From: Candidatus Berkelbacteria bacterium | GTDB taxonomy: Bacteria; Patescibacteriota; UBA1384; DTJR01 | Length of the DNA stretch: 64,000 bases | Direction: 5' to 3' | Assembly: GCA_029865605.1 (NCBI GenBank) | Contig: JAOUGE010000003.1 | Coordinates: forward strand, 21,797 to 85,796 | Shown: in pieces, positions 34,977 to 64,000 of the stretch | How the letters are laid out: each line of letters opens with the position of its first letter | How positions within the stretch are numbered: position 1 is the first letter of the stretch | Notes under the pieces: model-generated | Database searches by the model: none | What the model saw: only the letters and a program-made list of their open reading frames with translations | What the model was told of the DNA's origin: nothing | Made by a program: the position numbers and the translations under genes

Positions 34977-35235
34977 TAACCCCGCTACACTTCTTACAAA
35001 TTCCGTATTTTCCTTCTTCTATCCTCTCCAGTGCTTTCTTCAGCTCCTTCAACTCCTTCTCGGCTAACTTCGATAAAGAGAGACTTTCCTCAAAAGCTTC
35101 GAATTCTAAAGCGTTGTCTTCGTTAGTTGTTCCGAGATGCTTAAATTTACGATATTCTTTTACCTCCCCCTCCAACCTCTTAATATCGAATTTTATTGCC
35201 TTCTTAAGACTTTTTAAAAGTTTTTGGCTGATCAT
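34909..35235 (-). CDS. DksA/TraR-family C4 zinc-finger protein
   Basis: 108 aa; coiled-coil N-term, C-terminal CKKCSGVIEAGRLKVYPAATTCATHAKDK. Confidence 0.7.
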   Translation of the reverse strand: MISQKLLKSLKKAIKFDIKRLEGEVKEYRKFKHLGTTNEDNALEFEAFEESLSLSKLAEKELKELKKALERIEEGKYGICKKCSGVIEAGRLKVYPAATTCATHAKDK

Positions 35236-35449
35236 AGGTAGCTCTCTCTGCTTTCTTTACTATCTCCATAATATCGGTCAAGTTACTCTTGTCAATAACC
35301 ATTTAATTTAAAAAGCTTTCGGGTAGAATAATCACATATGCACCAGTACCTGCCGGCAGGCAGGGCTCGGCGGTAGAACGCTTGATTTACCTTCAAGCGT
35401 TTTGGGGTTGGAACCCGGAGCTAATCCACAGCCAGAGCATATGAAAATT

Positions 35450-35526
35450 GCGTCTATAGCTCAGTTGGTTAGAGCGCATCGTTCACATCGATGAGGTCAG
35501 TGGTTCGAGTCCACTTAGACGCACCA
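35450..35526 (+). tRNA. tRNA-Val (anticodon CAC)
   Basis: Hand-folded cloverleaf: acceptor GCGTCTA/TAGACGC, D-arm GCTC-AGTTGGTTA-GAGC, anticodon arm CATCG-TTCACAT-CGATG, T-arm AGTGG-TTCGAGT-CCACT, encoded CCA. Confidence 0.85.
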
Positions 35527-35590
35527 TTAATTATGAACAGGCGCCTCGATGTCGAGGCGCCTGGATTCGCTCGCAGCCATACTGTCGGGC

Positions 35591-35935
35591 TCATCCCTTA
35601 GCAGGGGCACTGCCCCTCATCGAGGGCTCCCGCGGCTCAATGAAGAACCGGATTGCGGTGCGTTCGGCAGCCCCGATTTGAACATCGACAAACGCCGGGT
35701 AACACCAGATGTCCAGCCCTCCAGGGGACAGATAGCCGCGCGCGATGGCGATCGCCTTGACCGCCTGGTTAAGCGCTCCCGCCCCGATGGTCTGAACCTC
35801 CGCCCGGCGGCTTTCCCTGATACAGCCGGCAATGGCCCCAGCCACCTTGTTAGGATCCGACTTGGCCCCAACCTTGAGAACACCATCTTCGAACACTACT
35901 TCCGGCCGTTTCTCCTTTGTTCCTCTGCGTGGCAT
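35591..35935 (-). CDS. SpoVS-family (Alba-like fold) protein; high-GC gene
   Basis: ORF 35591..35992; start probably ATG at 35935 preceded by AGGAGGTG; ...KVGAKSDPNKVAGAIAGCIRESRRAEVQTIGAGALNQAVKAIAIARGYLSPGGLDIWCYPAFVDVQIGAAERTAIRFFIEPR matches SpoVS almost end to end; ~60%+ GC vs ~40% flanks. Confidence 0.7.
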   Translation of the reverse strand: MPRRGTKEKRPEVVFEDGVLKVGAKSDPNKVAGAIAGCIRESRRAEVQTIGAGALNQAVKAIAIARGYLSPGGLDIWCYPAFVDVQIGAAERTAIRFFIEPREPSMRGSAPAKG

Positions 35936-36080
35936 CGTGTGCCACCTCCTGCTGACTGGTGTGTATGTTGCTGCAATCGTTGCTGCGAGCAAAAAAAGCT
36001 TATCATAAAAATATCAGTTTGTCATCGAAGCTACCATTTAAAATTATTTAGCTTTTGCTATAATCCTTTTTTAGAGGAAA

Positions 36081-36695
36081 ATGACTGAAGAAGAATTATT
36101 TACCCAAGAAAAGGAAACGCCGGAAGAAACTAAAAAGCGCAGTTTTTTAGTCAACTTATTCTTTGGTTTTATCGATTTTATTAAAACGGTTGCCTTAATC
36201 ATTATTATCGCTTTCGCCATCAGGGTTTTTGCCGTCCAGCCCTTCATTGTTGAGGGTCAGTCTATGGAGCCAATGTTTAAAAACAACGATTATCTGATTA
36301 CAGAAAAAATCTTATATCGGCTAAAAGACCCTGCTAGAGGCGATGTTGTTATTTTTCACCCTCCAGAAAATCCCTCTATAAACTATATCAAGAGAGTAAT
36401 CGGGCTGCCGGGAGATGTAATCGAAATCAAAGATGGTAAGGTTTTTGTTAACAGCCAAGCCTTGAGTGAATCCTATGTTGACTCTTCAACTCTGCTTAAT
36501 CTGAAGTCCCCGCAAGCGCCGATCACGCTAAAATCCGGAGAATATTACGTTTTAGGTGACAACCGAAATCACTCAAGAGATTCGCGCGAAATAGGCGCAA
36601 TTCCAAAACAAAACATAGTTTCAAGGATTTGGTTCAGACTGCTTCCGCCGTCAAGCATAAGGATCTTTGCCCGGGTCAACTACGACACACCCTAG
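36081..36695 (+). CDS. lepB: signal peptidase I
   Basis: 204 aa; N-terminal TM; catalytic GQSMEP (Ser) and IKRVIGLPGD (Lys) boxes, GDNRNHSxDSR box. Confidence 0.85.
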   Translation: MTEEELFTQEKETPEETKKRSFLVNLFFGFIDFIKTVALIIIIAFAIRVFAVQPFIVEGQSMEPMFKNNDYLITEKILYRLKDPARGDVVIFHPPENPSINYIKRVIGLPGDVIEIKDGKVFVNSQALSESYVDSSTLLNLKSPQAPITLKSGEYYVLGDNRNHSRDSREIGAIPKQNIVSRIWFRLLPPSSIRIFARVNYDTP

Positions 36696-37872: not shown

Positions 37873-39591
37873 ATGCCACTAGAAAAATCTTGCCGCCAGT
37901 GCAAGAACAGGTTCGTCATTGAAGATGATGAGTTAAAGTTTTTTTCAAAAATTTCCCCCCGGTTCTCAAATAAAACCTTCGAAATTCCCCCTCCGACTCT
38001 GTGTCCGGTCTGCCGTGAGATTCATCGGCTCATTCGCCGTAACGAAAGACATCTCTACAGCCGGAAATGCGACCTCTGCTCAAAACGAGTCGTCAGTATG
38101 TACTCAACCGGAAAGCCATTCCCGGTCTTTTGTCAAGAATGTTGGTGGGGCGGTAAATGGAACGCAAAAGACTATGGTGCAAAATACGAAAGCGGCTCTT
38201 TTTTTGAACAATTTAAGAAACTTTATAACAAGGTCCCCAAGGTCTGTGCCTCAATCATCAAAAGCACTAATTGCGACTTTAACACCTTTCTGGTTGATTC
38301 GAAAAATTGCTATATGACAACTTCATCAAGAGGAGAAAATTGCCTTTATTGCCGTAAGGTCGTTGATTGCCGTGATGTCGTTGACCTTCTTAACTCAAAC
38401 GAGTGCGAAAACTGCTATGAGACAATCAACTGCCATAACTGCTACGACTGCAATTTTGCAAATTTTTGCGAAAATTGTTCCAATTCGATGTTTTTATTTG
38501 CCTGCAAGGGTTGCCACAACTGTTTTATGAGCTCGAACCTGAACAACAAAAACTTCTATTTTTATAACCAGCCGCTTCCAAAGGAGGAATATTTGAAAAA
38601 GGTCAGCGAGCTCTGGAACGGCAGCTATAAAAGTCTAGAGAAACTAAAGGCGGAATACTTAGAACTTATTAAAGGCGCCACCCACAAAGAAAATACTAAC
38701 CGAAGAAGCGAGAATTGCTTAGGGAACGATCTTACAAACTGTAAAAATTGCCGGGACTGCTTTGAGATCAAAGACGGTGAAAACTGCATCTATGTTTACG
38801 ACAGCAAGGGCATAACCCCGCGCGACTCGATGGATTGCGATATGGGAGCTGGGGCCGAACTTTGCTACCAGCTTCTAAGCGGATATGTTGCCTATAGATG
38901 TATGTTCGGAGCGATCAATTATACTTCGAAAGATCTGCTCTACTGCTGCGATTGTTATGACAGTGATTTTCTTTTCGGCTGTGCTGGAATGAAAAATAGG
39001 AAATATTTTGTCTTAAACAGTGAGTATTCAAAAGAAGATTATGAAGAATTGGTCAGTAGAATAATCGCCGATATGATCGAGAATAAAGAATGGGGGGAGT
39101 ATTTCCCACTTGGCGACTCTACATTCGCTTACAATGAAGCCCTGGTTAGCATATATTTCCCTAAAACTAAACAAGAGGCTCAGAAAATCGGGGCGAACTG
39201 GCTTAATGACCACAAGGCAAAATATAAAGGGCCTTTTTATGAACCCTGCGACAGCATCTCCGACTACAAAAAATTCTCTCTCAAAAGAGACGAGCTTTTG
39301 CGAAGTGTAATCAGATGTCAGACCTCCGGCAGGCCGTTCAGAATAATCCCAAGGGAGCTCTCCTACTATATGGCAAACAATATTCCCATTCCACGCGAAC
39401 ATCCCGAAGCGAGATTTAAGAGAAGATTTTCGCTTCTTAACCCTCGCCAACTCTGGGAAAGAGATTGTATGTGCGAAGGCGAGTGCCTAAGGCACAGCGG
39501 GGAGTGCAAAACAAGGTTTAAAACGACCTATGCTCCAGAACGGCCAGAAAAGGTTTTTTGCGATAATTGCTATATTTATACGTTTAGATAA
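37873..39591 (+). CDS. large cysteine-rich protein (44 Cys), N- and C-terminal zinc-ribbon-like CxxC pairs, central tandem N-C-x2-C / C-x2-N-C repeats; function unknown
   Basis: 572-aa ORF with no recognisable SD; CRQC...CPVC, CDLC...CQEC, then NCYMT..NCLYC..DCRD..ECENCYETINCHNCYDCNFANFCENC..., C-term CMCEGEC...CKT...CDNC. Confidence 0.5.
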   Translation: MPLEKSCRQCKNRFVIEDDELKFFSKISPRFSNKTFEIPPPTLCPVCREIHRLIRRNERHLYSRKCDLCSKRVVSMYSTGKPFPVFCQECWWGGKWNAKDYGAKYESGSFFEQFKKLYNKVPKVCASIIKSTNCDFNTFLVDSKNCYMTTSSRGENCLYCRKVVDCRDVVDLLNSNECENCYETINCHNCYDCNFANFCENCSNSMFLFACKGCHNCFMSSNLNNKNFYFYNQPLPKEEYLKKVSELWNGSYKSLEKLKAEYLELIKGATHKENTNRRSENCLGNDLTNCKNCRDCFEIKDGENCIYVYDSKGITPRDSMDCDMGAGAELCYQLLSGYVAYRCMFGAINYTSKDLLYCCDCYDSDFLFGCAGMKNRKYFVLNSEYSKEDYEELVSRIIADMIENKEWGEYFPLGDSTFAYNEALVSIYFPKTKQEAQKIGANWLNDHKAKYKGPFYEPCDSISDYKKFSLKRDELLRSVIRCQTSGRPFRIIPRELSYYMANNIPIPREHPEARFKRRFSLLNPRQLWERDCMCEGECLRHSGECKTRFKTTYAPERPEKVFCDNCYIYTFR

Positions 39592-42995: not shown

Positions 42996-43029
42996 GGGGG
43001 TTGACAAGCATCGGTCTTGTAATTATCAT
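42996..43029 (+). promoter_or_regulatory. putative strong sigma70-type promoter (GGGGG-TTGACA, 17-nt spacer, TATCAT)
   Basis: GGGGGTTGACAagcatcggtcttgtaatTATCAT; predicted TSS ~43036-43039. Confidence 0.55.
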
Positions 43030-43038
43030 CATTACAAG

Positions 43039-43163
43039 ATGAGAAACCTCAAACACCACAAGAAGCTGCAAAAGAGATCTCTCATCCAAGAGGCCATCAC
43101 GGCCTCGTTTTTGTATCAGGGCCCTTAAGGGTCCCAAACGCTCCCTGAGAGGGAGGTGAATCG
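43039..43163 (+). promoter_or_regulatory. 5' leader: leaderless 29-codon uORF (43039..43128) containing a terminator-like hairpin, followed by two GC hairpins, the last overlapping the SD of the downstream gene
   Basis: ATG at predicted TSS; uORF MRNLKHHKKLQKRSLIQEAITASFLYQGP; GAGGCCatcacGGCCTCgttttt (43090..43112); GGGCCCttaaGGGTCC (43118..43134); CTCCCtgagaGGGAGgtg (43141..43158) then ATG 43164. Confidence 0.35.
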
Positions 43164-43808
43164 ATGGACCAGCGGGTCGAAGAAGCGCTTAGGGCGCTAG
43201 AAGACAGCCTCCGACTCCACCTGGATCATTACACCTCGAATGAGATCGCACTCATTCATAGAGCAATGCACACCGCTGTCACCTGGCAAGGCACACGCAC
43301 GCGTCTCTCGGGCACACCGGCCTGGGCCCACACGCTCGCAGTAGGCAACGACCTAATCGCGCTCGGCGCCGATGCCGACCCGATCGTCGCCGGTTACCAT
43401 CACGACGACTTGGAGGACCTCGGCAAAACAGCCGAAGATCTGTGCACACTCTATGGCCCCGAAGCCGCCGGGCTGGTGGTTGCCCTGACCAAGACTGTCG
43501 AGGACACCTATATCGCCCAGCTGATACGCGAGGGACATGTCAACTGGTGGGTGCTGCTGATTAAGGCCGTTGACCGGCGCCACAACATTCGAACAGTCGC
43601 CGGCTTCAAACTCAACAAGCAGGAAGAGTATGCCCACGAAACCCGAGCTCTGGTCGCCGTCCTGCGCATTGGCAGCATCTGGGTCCCCGCCGAGTGGCAA
43701 GAGCGCTACCACGGCATCCTCGACGAATCGCAAGGGCTTGCCCGACAAGTCCTCGCCTCGATCGAAGCCGGGCGCCGTACGAACCCCACCCTCCCCCTCC
43801 TGTTCTAG
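43164..43808 (+). CDS. small alarmone hydrolase-like HD protein (RelA/SpoT-type (p)ppGpp hydrolase domain only); high-GC gene
   Basis: 214 aa; RLSGTPAWAHTLAVG (RxSGxPYxxH), GYHHDDLEDLG (HDxxED), LVVALTK, LIKAVDRRHNIRTV (KLADRxHNMRT); no synthetase domain; ~60% GC. Confidence 0.75.
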   Translation: MDQRVEEALRALEDSLRLHLDHYTSNEIALIHRAMHTAVTWQGTRTRLSGTPAWAHTLAVGNDLIALGADADPIVAGYHHDDLEDLGKTAEDLCTLYGPEAAGLVVALTKTVEDTYIAQLIREGHVNWWVLLIKAVDRRHNIRTVAGFKLNKQEEYAHETRALVAVLRIGSIWVPAEWQERYHGILDESQGLARQVLASIEAGRRTNPTLPLLF

Positions 43809-43953
43809 GCCTCGCTGCAGTGCCAGAAGGCAAAAGCAGCGGGGCCTTCGCGATTTTTAAAACCAAGGGGGTTGACAAGAAAGCTTTTTTGTCTTAAACA
43901 AGACTGCTATAATTATTTTGCTATGTTAAGTAGCTTGAGAGGAGGTGATCAAA

Positions 43954-63532: not shown

Positions 63533-63538
63533 GTCGGG

Positions 63539-63573
63539 CGGGGCGGACACGCGCTTGCGCGCGTGCCGCCCCG
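63539..63573. terminator. 15-bp GC-rich hairpin between convergent genes (possible bidirectional terminator; no flanking T-run)
   Basis: CGGGGCGGACACGCGC-ttgc-GCGCGTGCCGCCCCG with one bulge. Confidence 0.4.
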
Positions 63574-63589
63574 TGTGCGAGCTGGCCCG

Positions 63590-64000
63590 CTAGGGCCGCT
63601 CGCGGATGACCACCTTCATCGACTCGGTCCACATGAGAGTGGGGTCCTTGATAGACCAGACGAGCGCGACCACATTGGCCGCGCCTCTGCCCTCGATCGT
63701 ATCGCCGACTACCCTGAGAGGCTCACCGGCATCGAGAACAAATCGAAAGCCTTCGGGAGCAGCAGTGAGCTTGGTCCGCTCACCGTCTGCCTCCTTCCGG
63801 TACCAATCCACCCAGACCTTCACAACCTGATCCGGGCGGGTGGCGTCATAGATCCGGAAGCTGCACCCGAAGACAGATGGGTGCAGAACACACGCCCGCG
63901 CCTCCGGAGTGACGGGAGTGCACATCTGCCCCTCGTTGAGGCGGACCTTGTCCCACCTCCCCGTCTTCTCCACTTCGAGGATCTCAGCGCCCGGGGGTTG
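63590..64000 (-). CDS. hypothetical protein, high-GC gene, 5' end beyond the window
   Basis: ORF 63590..63973 (127 aa from first Met); frame stays open to the window edge; ~65% GC; Ala/Arg/Gly/Val-rich; no recognisable motifs. Confidence 0.4.
   Translation of the reverse strand, partial: QPPGAEILEVEKTGRWDKVRLNEGQMCTPVTPEARACVLHPSVFGCSFRIYDATRPDQVVKVWVDWYRKEADGERTKLTAAPEGFRFVLDAGEPLRVVGDTIEGRGAANVVALVWSIKDPTLMWTESMKVVIRERP

What the first reader, a model, noticed from the sequence alone, without database searches (positions are those of the whole stretch)
35527..36000. High-GC SpoVS-family gene inserted immediately downstream of tRNA-Val
A SpoVS homolog (a sporulation-associated Alba-fold protein family) sits in a non-sporulating, reduced genome. 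It abuts the 3' end of tRNA-Val(CAC) with a sharp GC shift. A perfect GC hairpin (CAGGCGCCTCGAtgtCGAGGCGCCTG, 35538-35563) lies between the tRNA and the gene's stop. The far boundary (~36030) weakly repeats the tRNA 3' end (ACCATTAATTAT versus ACCATTTAAAATTAT). This is the classic geometry of tRNA-targeted integration, but no integrase is present.
Basis: partly seen in the sequence, partly recalled or inferred. Interest (0 to 1): 0.6.

Follow-up and report, generated by a model that had tools for sequence, protein, structure and literature searches.

The report
Anciently acquired GC-rich SpoVS gene cassette
A small nucleic-acid-binding-type gene (SpoVS) was inserted long ago between a tRNA gene and the signal-peptidase gene in one branch of the tiny-genome Berkelbacteria; it has stayed oddly GC-rich and carries conserved RNA pairing signals, so it is an old, domesticated import and not a fresh mobile island.

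Summary
Window 35591-35935 (-) encodes a true SpoVS protein (Pfam 120 bits; AlphaFold model matches SpoVS crystal structures). It has 61% GC (GC3 0.67) in a 42% GC Candidatus Berkelbacteria genome. It lies 64 nt from tRNA-Val(CAC), with a perfect 12-bp hairpin between them.

The "weak boundary repeat" is no better than chance, and there is no integrase.

Comparative loci change the interpretation. Six related lineages have tRNA-Val directly followed by lepB (empty site), and one carries a Bro-N gene there. Four lineages carry SpoVS there, and these form one clade in the LepB tree (86% bootstrap) and the Der tree (63%). So this is a real insertion, but an old one that has been inherited vertically.

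All copies share:
- a new N-terminal MPR extension;
- an extended -10 promoter exactly 6 nt before GCTCGCAGC;
- an SD/AUG-sequestering hairpin;
- a 3'-UTR GCTGCGAGC, complementary to the transcript's 5' end, just before a GC-rich hairpin.

Four-fold sites are saturated between lineages, yet they stay 69-82% GC against 43% in host genes. This suggests the GC-richness is maintained and is not a relic.

Best reading: a domesticated, self-contained SpoVS transcription unit whose mRNA ends pair, like B. subtilis hbs. The function of this pairing is inferred, not shown.

The parts
35450..35526 (+). tRNA-Val(CAC). This is the native gene that marks the left side of the junction. It is present at this position in all relatives, with or without SpoVS.
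   Evidence: ARAGORN; Rfam RF00005 at 71 bits.
35527..36030 (.). Approximate extent of the DNA that is extra relative to the empty tRNA-Val/lepB junctions. It comprises an AT-rich spacer, the SpoVS transcription unit and its promoter. The edges are not precisely definable.
   Evidence: Comparison with the empty junctions in L093, L094, L096, L097, L007 and L008. GC steps at about 35538 and about 35990.
35538..35563 (-). GC-rich 3' hairpin, a perfect 12-bp palindrome (effectively an 11-bp stem with a 4-nt loop). It is a putative terminator or 3'-end protector of the SpoVS mRNA. It has no canonical U-tract.
   Evidence: I6. The stem is identical in L087 with a different loop. It is replaced by GGGGCGGCC/GGCCGCCCC in L092 and L089. 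It folds in every MFE structure. The terminator scan found no canonical site.
35569..35577 (-). 3'-UTR motif GCUGCGAGC in mRNA sense, lying 5 nt upstream of the hairpin. It is the exact reverse complement of the first 9 nt of the predicted transcript.
   Evidence: I8. This is one of only two exact copies of the 9-mer in the 64-kb window. It is conserved in L087 (exact), L092 (GCUGCGAGU, ending in a G-U pair) and L089 (8 of 9). Pairing probability is about 1.0 in 5 transcripts.
35591..35935 (-). SpoVS coding sequence, 114 aa, with the TGA stop at 35591-35593. Residues 1-18 are a lineage-specific MPR... extension, residues 19-101 are the SpoVS/Alba-like core, and residues 102-114 are a short C-terminal tail.
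   Evidence: Pfam, PDB sequence search. AF2 model with pLDDT 84.8 and Foldseek matches to 9a7h_B, 2EH1 and 2EK0 with TMt 0.89-0.96. Alignments. NCBI annotates it as MDH4358604.1, stage V sporulation protein S.
35929..35949 (-). Shine-Dalgarno GGAGG (35945-35949) joined to a 6-bp hairpin, GUGGCA (35940-35945) / UGCCAC (35929-34). The hairpin sequesters the 3' part of the SD and the AUG (35933-35935).
   Evidence: The stem is conserved in 4 lineages with loops of 3-8 nt. Pair probabilities are 0.64-1.0. It is visible in the MFE and centroid folds.
35982..35990 (-). Predicted 5' end of the SpoVS mRNA, GCUCGCAGC. It is followed by the conserved A(A/G)CGAU(C/U)G and pairs with 35569-35577.
   Evidence: In all 4 lineages the -10 hexamer ends exactly 6 nt upstream (sequences; inference).
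35997..36025 (-). Putative SpoVS promoter: -35 ATGACA (36020-36025), a 17-nt spacer, and an extended -10 TGaTAAGCT (35997-36005). The match to consensus is weak, so this is inferred.
   Evidence: Read from the sequence. The same TGnTAnnnT + 6 nt + GCTCGCAGC layout occurs in L087, L092 and L089. The consensus scan did not report it.
36037..36064 (+). lepB promoter-like site, TTTAAA-16-TATAAT with TG.
   Evidence: It is conserved between the window and L087.
36081..36695 (+). lepB (signal peptidase I). This is the native gene that marks the right side of the junction.
   Evidence: Pfam Peptidase_S26 at E=1e-48. Orthologues were used for the synteny comparison and the tree.

Best explanation
The window comes from a Candidatus Berkelbacteria (CPR/Patescibacteria) genome.

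Origin. In the ancestor of one Berkelbacteria sub-clade, a spoVS gene from a high-GC bacterium was inserted into the short spacer between tRNA-Val(CAC) and lepB. The donor's spoVS normally follows ymdB. The insertion mechanism is no longer recoverable. The insert was then fixed and inherited vertically.

Domestication. The gene became a self-contained monocistronic unit with these parts:
- an extended -10 promoter that starts transcription at the G of GCUCGCAGC;
- a strong SD partly locked, together with the AUG, in a 6-bp hairpin;
- a new roughly 18-codon N-terminal extension;
- the Alba-like SpoVS core;
- a 3' UTR whose GCUGCGAGC pairs with the very 5' end of the mRNA;
- a GC-rich 3' hairpin immediately after that.

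Inferred mechanism. The end-to-end helix and the 3' hairpin leave no free 5' or 3' end, which would protect the mRNA from end-dependent RNases. The SD/AUG hairpin would set or regulate translation initiation. Together with a generally GC-rich, strongly folding message, this would give stable expression of a small, probably nucleic-acid-binding protein.

The high GC is not a timestamp of recent transfer. It appears to be maintained, most plausibly by selection at the RNA level.

Shown: family membership, the insertion relative to empty sites, clade-wide conservation of position, composition and motifs.
Inferred: the transcription start site, the RNA pairing in vivo, the stabilising role, the reason for GC maintenance, and the protein's cellular role.
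For: Identity:
- Pfam SpoVS at 120 bits and PDB 2EH1/2EK0 at E=1.5e-22.
- The AF2 core has pLDDT above 90 and matches SpoVS structures with TMt 0.89-0.96, then Alba proteins.
- Family-invariant residues are retained.

Organism: the NCBI name for the exact protein is Candidatus Berkelbacteria.

Insertion:
- Six lineages have empty junctions and one has Bro-N there.
- No SpoVS lies within 3-6 kb of lepB in about 160 other LepB loci.
- The nearest non-CPR homologues (80-83%) are in ymdB-spoVS-DUF1015 or recA-recX-rny-ymdB-spoVS contexts at 65-67% GC.

Age and vertical descent:
- SpoVS sits at the same junction in L086-88/L091 (LepB 83%), L092/L090 (64%) and L089 (62%).
- SpoVS+ loci are monophyletic in the LepB NJ tree (86% bootstrap) and the Der tree (125/200).
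- SpoVS pairwise identities follow the LepB ranking.

Common origin:
- All copies share the MPR N-extension, which is absent from typical SpoVS.
- All copies share nucleotide motifs in the UTRs.
- The CPR-type clade is tiny, with 4 lineages among 5.8e9 proteins.

GC maintenance:
- Gene GC is 0.58-0.63 and GC3 is 0.65-0.75 in every lineage, against LepB GC3 of 0.41-0.46.
- Four-fold sites differ by 0.57-0.68 between lineages, as saturated as LepB at 0.58-0.66, yet they are 69-82% G+C against 43% in host genes.
- A neutral F81 expectation gives 0.60 for the minimum time and 0.47 for the scaled time.
- A second gene in the window (HD_4) shows the same persistent GC-richness in two relatives.

RNA elements:
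- The exact 9-mer occurs only twice in the 64 kb, in inverted orientation at the two ends of the unit.
- The 5' nt 1-9 pair with the 3' motif at probability about 1.0 in all 5 transcripts, and in both the MFE and the centroid structures.
- MFE z-scores are -2.8, -4.4, -3.2 and -2.2.
- The SD/AUG hairpin is conserved with a variable loop.
- The 3' hairpin has two stem versions with both-side changes.
- Precedent: the B. subtilis hbs mRNA has a 14-bp 5'/3'-UTR interaction and a strong SD that control RNase Y/J1 attack (PMC5737220).
Against: - No transcript data exist. The TSS, the 3' end and the pairing are predictions only.
- The 9-bp end helix is invariant, with only one G-U change, so there is no true covariation. 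Conservation could reflect a DNA-level site instead.
- The -10 hexamer in the window (TAAGCT) is a weak match, and the 3' hairpin lacks a U-tract.
- SpoVS-core monophyly of the four Berkelbacteria copies has only 35% bootstrap. Each copy is more similar to non-CPR SpoVS (70-83%) than to the other CPR copies (56-72%).
- The amelioration argument rests on 40-65 sites per gene near saturation. With the minimum time estimate, three of the four lineages are only marginally above expectation (P = 0.07-0.10).
- The trees are single-gene NJ trees from short metagenomic contigs.
- The protein's function is unknown even in B. subtilis.
Confidence: 0.6

Rival explanations
1. This is a recent, integrase-mediated genomic islet that targeted the 3' end of tRNA-Val. 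On this view the GC shift marks a young transfer and the weak ACCATT... repeat is the att scar.
For: - The gene is adjacent to the tRNA 3' end, there is a sharp GC step, and relatives have empty sites.
- Another cargo (Bro-N) occupies the same junction in L006.
- SpoVS homologues do occur on viral contigs.
Against: - No integrase lies within 10 kb on either side.
- The repeat is at chance level and is not conserved.
- The same gene is at the same site in lineages whose LepB identity is as low as 60-64%, and it co-diverges with the host genes.
- Synonymous sites are saturated between lineages.
- Viral SpoVS are at most 63% identical, which is further away than cellular ones.
Confidence: 0.05
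2. SpoVS is ancestral to Berkelbacteria at this locus and was lost in the 'empty' lineages. On this view there was no insertion.
For: - The gene is fixed, syntenic and co-diverging in a clade.
- SpoVS is widespread in non-sporulating phyla (PMC2732212).
Against: - It is absent from six sister lineages and from about 160 other Patescibacteria LepB loci.
- The SpoVS+ group is nested as one clade and is not basal or scattered.
- The protein is 80-83% identical to that of high-GC non-CPR bacteria, far closer than any housekeeping protein here would be.
- The gene has a foreign composition.
- Only four CPR-type lineages exist in 5.8e9 proteins.
Confidence: 0.08
3. Several independent acquisitions of spoVS occurred at a hot-spot junction, rather than one old event.
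For: - Each CPR copy is closer to non-CPR SpoVS than to the other CPR copies, and monophyly has weak bootstrap support of 21/60.
- The junction accepted a Bro-N gene in L006.
Against: - All four share features that the closest non-CPR genes lack: the MPR extension, the AUGCCACG/GGAGGUGGCA hairpin, the 5' GCTCGCAGCARCGAT motif, the 3' GCTGCGAG motif, and the same orientation and position.
- SpoVS distances rank in the same order as the LepB distances.
Confidence: 0.07
4. The inverted 9-mers (35569-35577 and 35982-35990) act at the DNA level and do not form an mRNA helix. They could be relic terminal inverted repeats of a small mobile cassette, or paired binding sites for a protein, possibly SpoVS itself.
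For: - The two exact copies bracket the gene.
- The helix shows no covariation.
- The 5' copy is part of a longer conserved 17-20-nt block, more than the pairing alone would require.
Against: - Dead TIRs should have decayed like the surrounding UTR sequence, which is unalignable between lineages.
- The promoter is positioned so that the 5' copy is exactly the transcript start in all four lineages.
- The one change seen (C to U in L092) keeps a G-U pair that is valid only in RNA.
- The motif is not repeated elsewhere in the window.
Confidence: 0.15
5. The locus is an assembly chimera or contamination by a high-GC read pile.
For: There is an abrupt composition change within one contig.
Against: - Both junctions are reproduced in three independent assemblies of two strains.
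- They are also reproduced in three further lineages from other samples.
Confidence: 0.01

Closest known systems
SpoVS (stage V sporulation protein S; Pfam PF04232) of Bacillus subtilis / Thermus thermophilus (PDB 2EH1, 2EK0; 9a7h chain B)
   Same: - Same domain and fold. The core is 54-64% identical to solved or modelled SpoVS, and the family-invariant residues are kept.
- Like the Thermus, Chloroflexi and Thermotogae homologues, it sits in a non-sporulating organism (PMC2732212).
   Different: - It is detached from the usual rny-ymdB-spoVS neighbourhood.
- It carries an extra roughly 18-residue N-terminal extension, disordered over residues 1-11 with a short strand at 14-16, and a 13-residue C-terminal tail.
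- It evolves much faster within its clade than typical SpoVS, at 56-72% identity.
- It is transcribed as its own unit with conserved UTR elements.
tRNA-linked genomic islands / integrative elements
   Same: - Foreign-composition DNA lies immediately 3' of a tRNA gene.
- Relatives have empty sites.
- The same junction is used by another cargo.
   Different: - There is no integrase and no att duplication above chance.
- It is a single gene of about 0.5 kb.
- It is fixed and co-diverging with the host over deep time, with no patchy distribution among close strains.
5'/3'-UTR long-range interaction of the Bacillus subtilis hbs mRNA (Braun, Durand & Condon 2017, PMC5737220)
   Same: - It is a short monocistronic mRNA for a small nucleic-acid-binding-type protein.
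- It has a strong Shine-Dalgarno sequence.
- A complementary 5'-UTR/3'-UTR segment sits just upstream of the terminator hairpin.
   Different: - The helix here is 9 bp (14 bp in hbs) and involves the very first nucleotides of the predicted transcript.
- There is no experimental evidence.
- The RNases of this organism were not examined.
- There is no sequence homology to hbs.
Alba-superfamily chromatin/RNA-binding proteins (e.g. Sso10b, PDB 1H0X)
   Same: It has the same beta-alpha-beta-alpha-beta-beta fold by Foldseek at probability about 1.0. SpoVS is placed in the Alba superfamily (PMC11621453, PMC2732212).
   Different: - It is only 12-19% identical, with TM 0.5-0.7.
- No nucleic-acid binding has been shown for any SpoVS.

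Membership tests
SpoVS family (Pfam PF04232) | The sequence matches the family HMM above the curated gathering score. | tested here: met
   120.2 bits against a cutoff of 24, E=3.2e-35, covering profile positions 2-82 of 83.
SpoVS family (Pfam PF04232) | The Alba-like beta-alpha-beta-alpha-beta-beta fold is superposable on solved SpoVS. | tested here: met
   The AF2 model has pLDDT 84.8 and the core is above 90. Foldseek matches 9a7h_B, 2EH1 and 2EK0 at E 1e-12 to 3e-14, TMt 0.89-0.96 and rmsd 0.6-0.8 A.
SpoVS family (Pfam PF04232) | Family-invariant residues are conserved (for example S26, P28, G33, Q48, G51, N56, Q57, K60, R66, G67, D75, P80, F82, E91, T93 in window numbering). | tested here: met
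   These are invariant columns of the 23-sequence alignment that includes the window protein.
SpoVS family (Pfam PF04232) | Typical genomic neighbourhood (rny-ymdB-spoVS). This is common in the family but is not a formal requirement. | tested here: not met
   The window gene lies between tRNA-Val and lepB. The closest non-CPR homologues do follow ymdB.
SpoVS family (Pfam PF04232) | A role in sporulation or cell-separation phenotypes, as in B. subtilis. | not testable with these tools
   The organism is an uncultured CPR bacterium. The literature reports SpoVS in many non-sporulators (PMC2732212).
tRNA-targeted integrative island | It is inserted next to or into the 3' end of a tRNA gene, with empty sites in relatives. 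| tested here: met
   The tRNA-Val to lepB gap is 10-190 bp in six lineages and 554 bp here.
tRNA-targeted integrative island | A site-specific recombinase (integrase) is encoded in or beside the island. | tested here: not met
   The ORFs and the precomputed Pfam hits for 10 kb on either side are all housekeeping. There is no Phage_integrase, Resolvase or rve hit.
tRNA-targeted integrative island | Flanking direct repeats (attL/attR) duplicate the tRNA 3' end. | tested here: not met
   The proposed repeat is at chance frequency, 82 observed against 86.6 expected. It is not conserved across lineages. No other direct repeat brackets the insert.
tRNA-targeted integrative island | Patchy, strain-level presence or absence that indicates recent mobility. 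| tested here: not met
   Presence maps to one clade and co-diverges with LepB and Der.
hbs-type 5'/3'-UTR interaction controlling mRNA decay | Complementary segments in the 5' UTR and 3' UTR are predicted to pair. | tested here: met
   A 9-bp perfect complement with pairing probability about 1.0 in 5 transcripts.
hbs-type 5'/3'-UTR interaction controlling mRNA decay | Evolutionary support for the pairing, by conservation or covariation. | tested here: inconclusive
   Both halves are conserved in 4 lineages amid unalignable UTR sequence. The only change is one G-C to G-U and one terminal mismatch, and there are no double compensatory changes.
hbs-type 5'/3'-UTR interaction controlling mRNA decay | A demonstrated effect on RNase cleavage or mRNA half-life. 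| not testable with these tools
   This needs transcript mapping and mutagenesis.
Integron gene cassette | An attC site with R''/R' core sites (RYYYAAC ... GTTRRRY) 3' of a promoterless ORF, plus a nearby integron integrase. | tested here: not met
   The 3' region read has a perfect 12-bp palindrome and no GTTRRRY core. The gene has its own promoter-like site, and no integrase is present.

The most novel reading that the evidence does not exclude
This Berkelbacteria clade keeps a small set of anciently imported genes compositionally 'frozen' at about 60% GC inside about 42% GC genomes. In this window the set is SpoVS, an HD_4 protein at 43164-43808, and perhaps the gene at 63590-63973. On this reading, selection acts on the mRNA itself: end-to-end 5'/3' pairing, start-codon hairpins and long structured leaders. 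That would be a previously undescribed mode of post-transcriptional expression control in CPR bacteria, and SpoVS could be an RNA- or nucleoid-binding factor that autoregulates through these elements.
Probability: 0.2. Interest if true: 0.65.

Novelty: new variant of a known kind. Interest (0 to 1): 0.42.

Why it matters
1. A sharp GC step next to a tRNA is not a clock. This example reads as a "fresh island" but is old, fixed and vertically inherited. That is a caution for composition-based HGT calls in CPR genomes.
2. It documents one of very few SpoVS/Alba-like proteins in the Candidate Phyla Radiation. The gene was acquired from a high-GC bacterium and remodelled with a new N-terminal tail and its own promoter and UTRs.
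3. It gives a concrete, testable candidate for bacterial mRNA end-to-end pairing outside Bacillus, conserved across deep divergence.
4. Together with the HD_4 gene, it raises the question of why particular genes resist amelioration.

Tried and rejected
- Rfam, at gathering threshold on the whole window and at E<=1 on 35200-36100. It found only tRNA and RNase P, and no known RNA family covers the SpoVS UTRs.
- The boundary direct repeat. It is at chance level.
- A canonical intrinsic terminator. The scan found none.
- Integron cassette and attC reading. Rejected on sequence and on the absence of an integrase.
- Phage delivery. IMG/VR contigs do carry SpoVS, but at most 63% identical and without the MPR extension.
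- A donor carrying the same UTR motifs. The closest non-CPR loci lack GCTCGCAGC/GCTGCGAGC.
- The tandem two-domain SpoVS proteins P0002-4, which were the top bit scores. They lie in a non-CPR context (trigger factor, ClpP, B12-binding) and are only 60% identical.
- fold_alignment was run with wrong locus coordinates for two sequences and is void. It was replaced by per-sequence folding of correctly extracted transcripts.
- A literature search for a SpoVS-YunD link, prompted by PDB 9a7h, found nothing. A search for Berkelbacteria HGT/GC papers found nothing specific.
- The 179-aa antisense ORF at 35549-36088 (+) is treated as a by-product of GC-rich sequence, since the Pfam-supported frame is on the minus strand.
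Full report
WHAT IS THERE

ARAGORN and Rfam place tRNA-Val(CAC) at 35450-35526 on the plus strand. On the minus strand, 35591-35935 encodes a 114-residue protein. It matches Pfam SpoVS (PF04232) at 120 bits against a gathering score of 24. It matches the Thermus thermophilus SpoVS crystal structures 2EH1/2EK0 at E=1.5e-22.

An AlphaFold2 model has mean pLDDT 84.8, with the core at residues 13-101 mostly above 90. It superposes on B. subtilis and Thermus SpoVS with target TM-scores of 0.89-0.96, and more distantly on archaeal Alba proteins. The exact protein is in NCBI as MDH4358604.1, [quoted passage not shown], on a 173-kb contig. The family call is therefore secure and, at the annotation level, already made.

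The gene has 61.4% GC and GC3 of 0.67, against means of 0.42/0.42 for 68 other ORFs of the window. The composition steps up at about 35538 and down at about 35990. The 12-bp perfect palindrome at 35538-35563 is real.

The proposed boundary repeat is not meaningful. Matches of that quality occur 82 times in the window against 86.6 expected. The lepB-side copy is simply the lepB promoter. No integrase is encoded within 10 kb on either side.

The arrangement is reproduced in two other assemblies, one of them a 98%-identical strain that spans both junctions. It is not an assembly artefact.

IS IT AN INSERTION?

Yes. I used LepB as a handle to fetch about 160 related loci from GTDB genomes and JGI metagenomes. 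In the nearest lineages that lack SpoVS (L093, L094, L096, L097, L007, L008; LepB 55-64% identical), tRNA-Val(CAC) is followed by lepB after only about 10-190 bp. The surrounding order rpmI-rplT-lspA-dksA-like-tRNA-Val-lepB-der is the same.

In L006, a Berkelbacteria MAG, the same junction holds an unrelated Bro-N domain ORF with host-like GC. The spot has therefore accepted cargo more than once.

The closest SpoVS proteins outside this group are 80-83% identical. They lie in the canonical ymdB-spoVS (recA-recX-rny-ymdB-spoVS) neighbourhood of contigs with 65-67% GC, and named relatives are Armatimonadota MAGs. A high-GC bacterial donor is the simplest source. An 86-residue protein cannot pin the lineage down further.

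IS IT RECENT?

No. SpoVS sits at exactly this junction, in the same orientation, in three further lineages:
- L086/L087/L088/L091 (LepB 83% identical to the window);
- L092/L090 (64%);
- L089 (62%).

In a LepB neighbour-joining tree the SpoVS-bearing loci form one clade with 86% bootstrap. A Der/EngA tree agrees, at 125 of 200 replicates. SpoVS pairwise identities rank in the same order as LepB identities.

All four copies share features that the non-CPR genes lack:
- an N-terminal extension beginning MPR;
- the nucleotide string GGAGGTGGCA...ATGCCACG around the start;
- a 5' block GCTCGCAGCA(A/G)CGAT(C/T)G;
- a 3' GCTGCGAG(C/T).

The SpoVS core tree recovers the four as a clade but with only 35% bootstrap. 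Each copy is closer to typical SpoVS than to its CPR cousins. I read this as accelerated, star-like divergence after one acquisition. Independent acquisitions are kept as a low-probability rival.

A profile search of 5.8 billion proteins finds no further members of this CPR type.

THE GC-RICHNESS PERSISTS

In every lineage the gene has 58-63% GC, with GC3 of 0.65-0.75, while the adjacent lepB has GC3 of 0.41-0.46.

At four-fold degenerate sites of conserved residues the copies differ at 57-68% of sites. This is as saturated as LepB, at 58-66%. Yet those sites are 69-82% G+C, against 43% in host genes. Only the closest pair, window and L088, shows slower synonymous change than LepB (16/40 against 39/64, P=0.045).

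A simple F81 decay towards the host composition predicts GC4 of about 0.60 if only the time since the window/L088 split is counted. It predicts about 0.47 if time is scaled to the deepest SpoVS+ node. The observed values exceed the latter with P of 5e-4 or less, and exceed the former only marginally for three lineages. The estimate is rough because there are few sites and they are near saturation.

The direction is nonetheless clear: the composition is not a timestamp, and it is probably being held. A second GC-rich gene of the window (HD_4, 43164-43808) behaves the same way in its only two known relatives.

CONSERVED NON-CODING ANATOMY

All sequences below are read in SpoVS sense.

- Promoter. 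In all four lineages an extended -10 element (TGnTAnnnT) ends exactly 6 nt before the G of GCTCGCAGC. This places the likely transcription start at window 35990. That placement is an inference, and the window's hexamer TAAGCT is weak.
- SD and start codon. The SD GGAGG is followed by GUGGCA, which pairs with UGCCAC. That is, the UG of the AUG plus the next four bases (codon 2 and the first base of codon 3). The stem is invariant, the loop varies from 3 to 8 nt, and predicted pair probabilities are 0.64-1.0. This explains why "MP(R)" is conserved.
- 3' UTR motif. Downstream of the stop codon the 3' UTRs are unalignable except for GCUGCGAGC. This motif lies 4-5 nt before a GC-rich hairpin and is the exact reverse complement of transcript nucleotides 1-9. 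L092 has a terminal U, giving a G-U pair, and L089 has one terminal mismatch.
- Uniqueness of the motif. The exact 9-mer occurs only twice in the 64-kb window, at these two places.
- Folding. ViennaRNA pairs the two ends with probability about 1.0 in all five transcripts, in both the MFE and the centroid structures. Whole-transcript MFE z-scores are -2.2 to -4.4.
- 3' hairpin. It comes in two stem versions, CAGGCGCCUCG and GGGGCGGCC, which differ on both sides.

Rfam has no family for any of this.

HOW IT MOST LIKELY WORKS

This section is inference. The unit looks like a compact, self-sufficient expression cassette. The 5'-terminal nucleotides are buried in a helix with the 3' UTR, and the 3' end is capped by a strong hairpin. 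This geometry should hinder 5'-end-dependent and 3'-exonucleolytic decay. The SD/AUG hairpin would meter translation initiation.

The nearest documented analogue is the B. subtilis hbs mRNA. There, a 14-bp 5'/3'-UTR interaction and a strong SD control attack by RNase Y and RNase J1 (PMC5737220). Long-range mRNA folding affecting expression is now reported to be widespread in B. subtilis (PMC12697547). Selection for a stable, highly structured message is a plausible, though unproven, reason for the maintained GC.

As for the protein, SpoVS has an Alba-like fold and is predicted to bind nucleic acid. Its molecular function is unknown even in Bacillus (PMC2732212, PMC11621453). The model shows residues 1-11 of the new N-terminal extension as disordered, and residues 14-16 adding a short strand.

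WHAT I COULD NOT ESTABLISH

- The insertion mechanism. No integrase, no att sites, and any scar would have decayed.
- The donor lineage beyond "high-GC, ymdB-spoVS type".
- Whether the 9-mers act in RNA or in DNA.
- Whether the cassette is expressed.
- The species-tree position of the short metagenomic contigs, beyond what two single-gene trees show.

VERDICT

The "classic tRNA-targeted integration" reading is only half right. There was an insertion at the tRNA-Val/lepB junction, but it is ancient, fixed in a Berkelbacteria sub-clade, and domesticated.

The more interesting content is the persistent GC-richness and the conserved end-to-end mRNA pairing and start-codon hairpin. The protein is a known kind. 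The cassette is a new variant of it. Interest is moderate.

Noticed in passing
window 42996-43879 (gene 43164-43808, +): This is a second GC-rich gene, an HD_4 domain protein with GC 0.62 and GC3 0.73. It is flanked by an exact 13-nt direct repeat, GGGGGTTGACAAG, at 42996-43008 and 43867-43879; each copy contains a TTGACA -35 box. Only two relatives exist in 5.8e9 proteins (84% and 64% aa). Both are next to a DJ-1_PfpI gene in AT-rich contigs and both are still GC-rich (GC3 0.64 and 0.69). The roughly 140-nt leader is conserved, with a possible 29-codon upstream ORF (43050-43139), and the terminator is also conserved.
   Followed up: partly
window 63533-64000 (ORF 63590-63973, -; runs off the window end): This is a third GC-rich gene (GC 0.63, GC3 0.77) with no Pfam hit. 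A GC-rich imperfect hairpin at about 63540-63577 lies directly after its stop. This is the same layout as the SpoVS 3' end.
   Followed up: no
window 35336-35449 (+): This is a 115-nt GC-rich, strongly folding segment (z = -4.2) lying between the tRNA-Val promoter and tRNA-Val(CAC). It is absent from the orthologous spacer of L087. ARAGORN calls a degenerate tRNA-Val(TAC) at 35355-35427, but only at 70% of its normal threshold. Rfam does not recognise it. It may be a decayed second tRNA or a tRNA leader element.
   Followed up: partly
L006 5097-5924 (+): In another Berkelbacteria MAG (JAPLVK010000013.1), the same tRNA-Val/lepB junction is occupied by a 275-aa Bro-N domain ORF of host-like GC (0.41). 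This suggests the junction is a recurrent landing site.
   Followed up: partly
window 35549-36088 (+): This is a 179-aa ORF antisense to SpoVS that runs into the lepB start. A comparable antisense ORF exists in L092 (1276-1689). It is most likely a by-product of the stop-poor, GC-rich sequence. It was not tested further.
   Followed up: no
window 37873-39591 (+): This is a 572-aa cysteine-rich ORF (many CxxC-like pairs) with no Pfam hit at E<=0.01. It lies between der and tRNA-Gln.
   Followed up: no
PDB 9a7h chain B (fold search): The best structural match is B. subtilis SpoVS in an integrative crosslinking-MS model with YunD, a metallophosphoesterase-type protein. Together with the widespread ymdB-spoVS adjacency, this hints that SpoVS partners with phosphoesterases. 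No paper linking the two was found in the library.
   Followed up: partly
L175-L237 (IMG/VR viral contigs): 63 viral contigs encode SpoVS-like proteins, 29-63% identical to the window protein. The family is therefore carried by phages, although none is close to the Berkelbacteria type.
   Followed up: no
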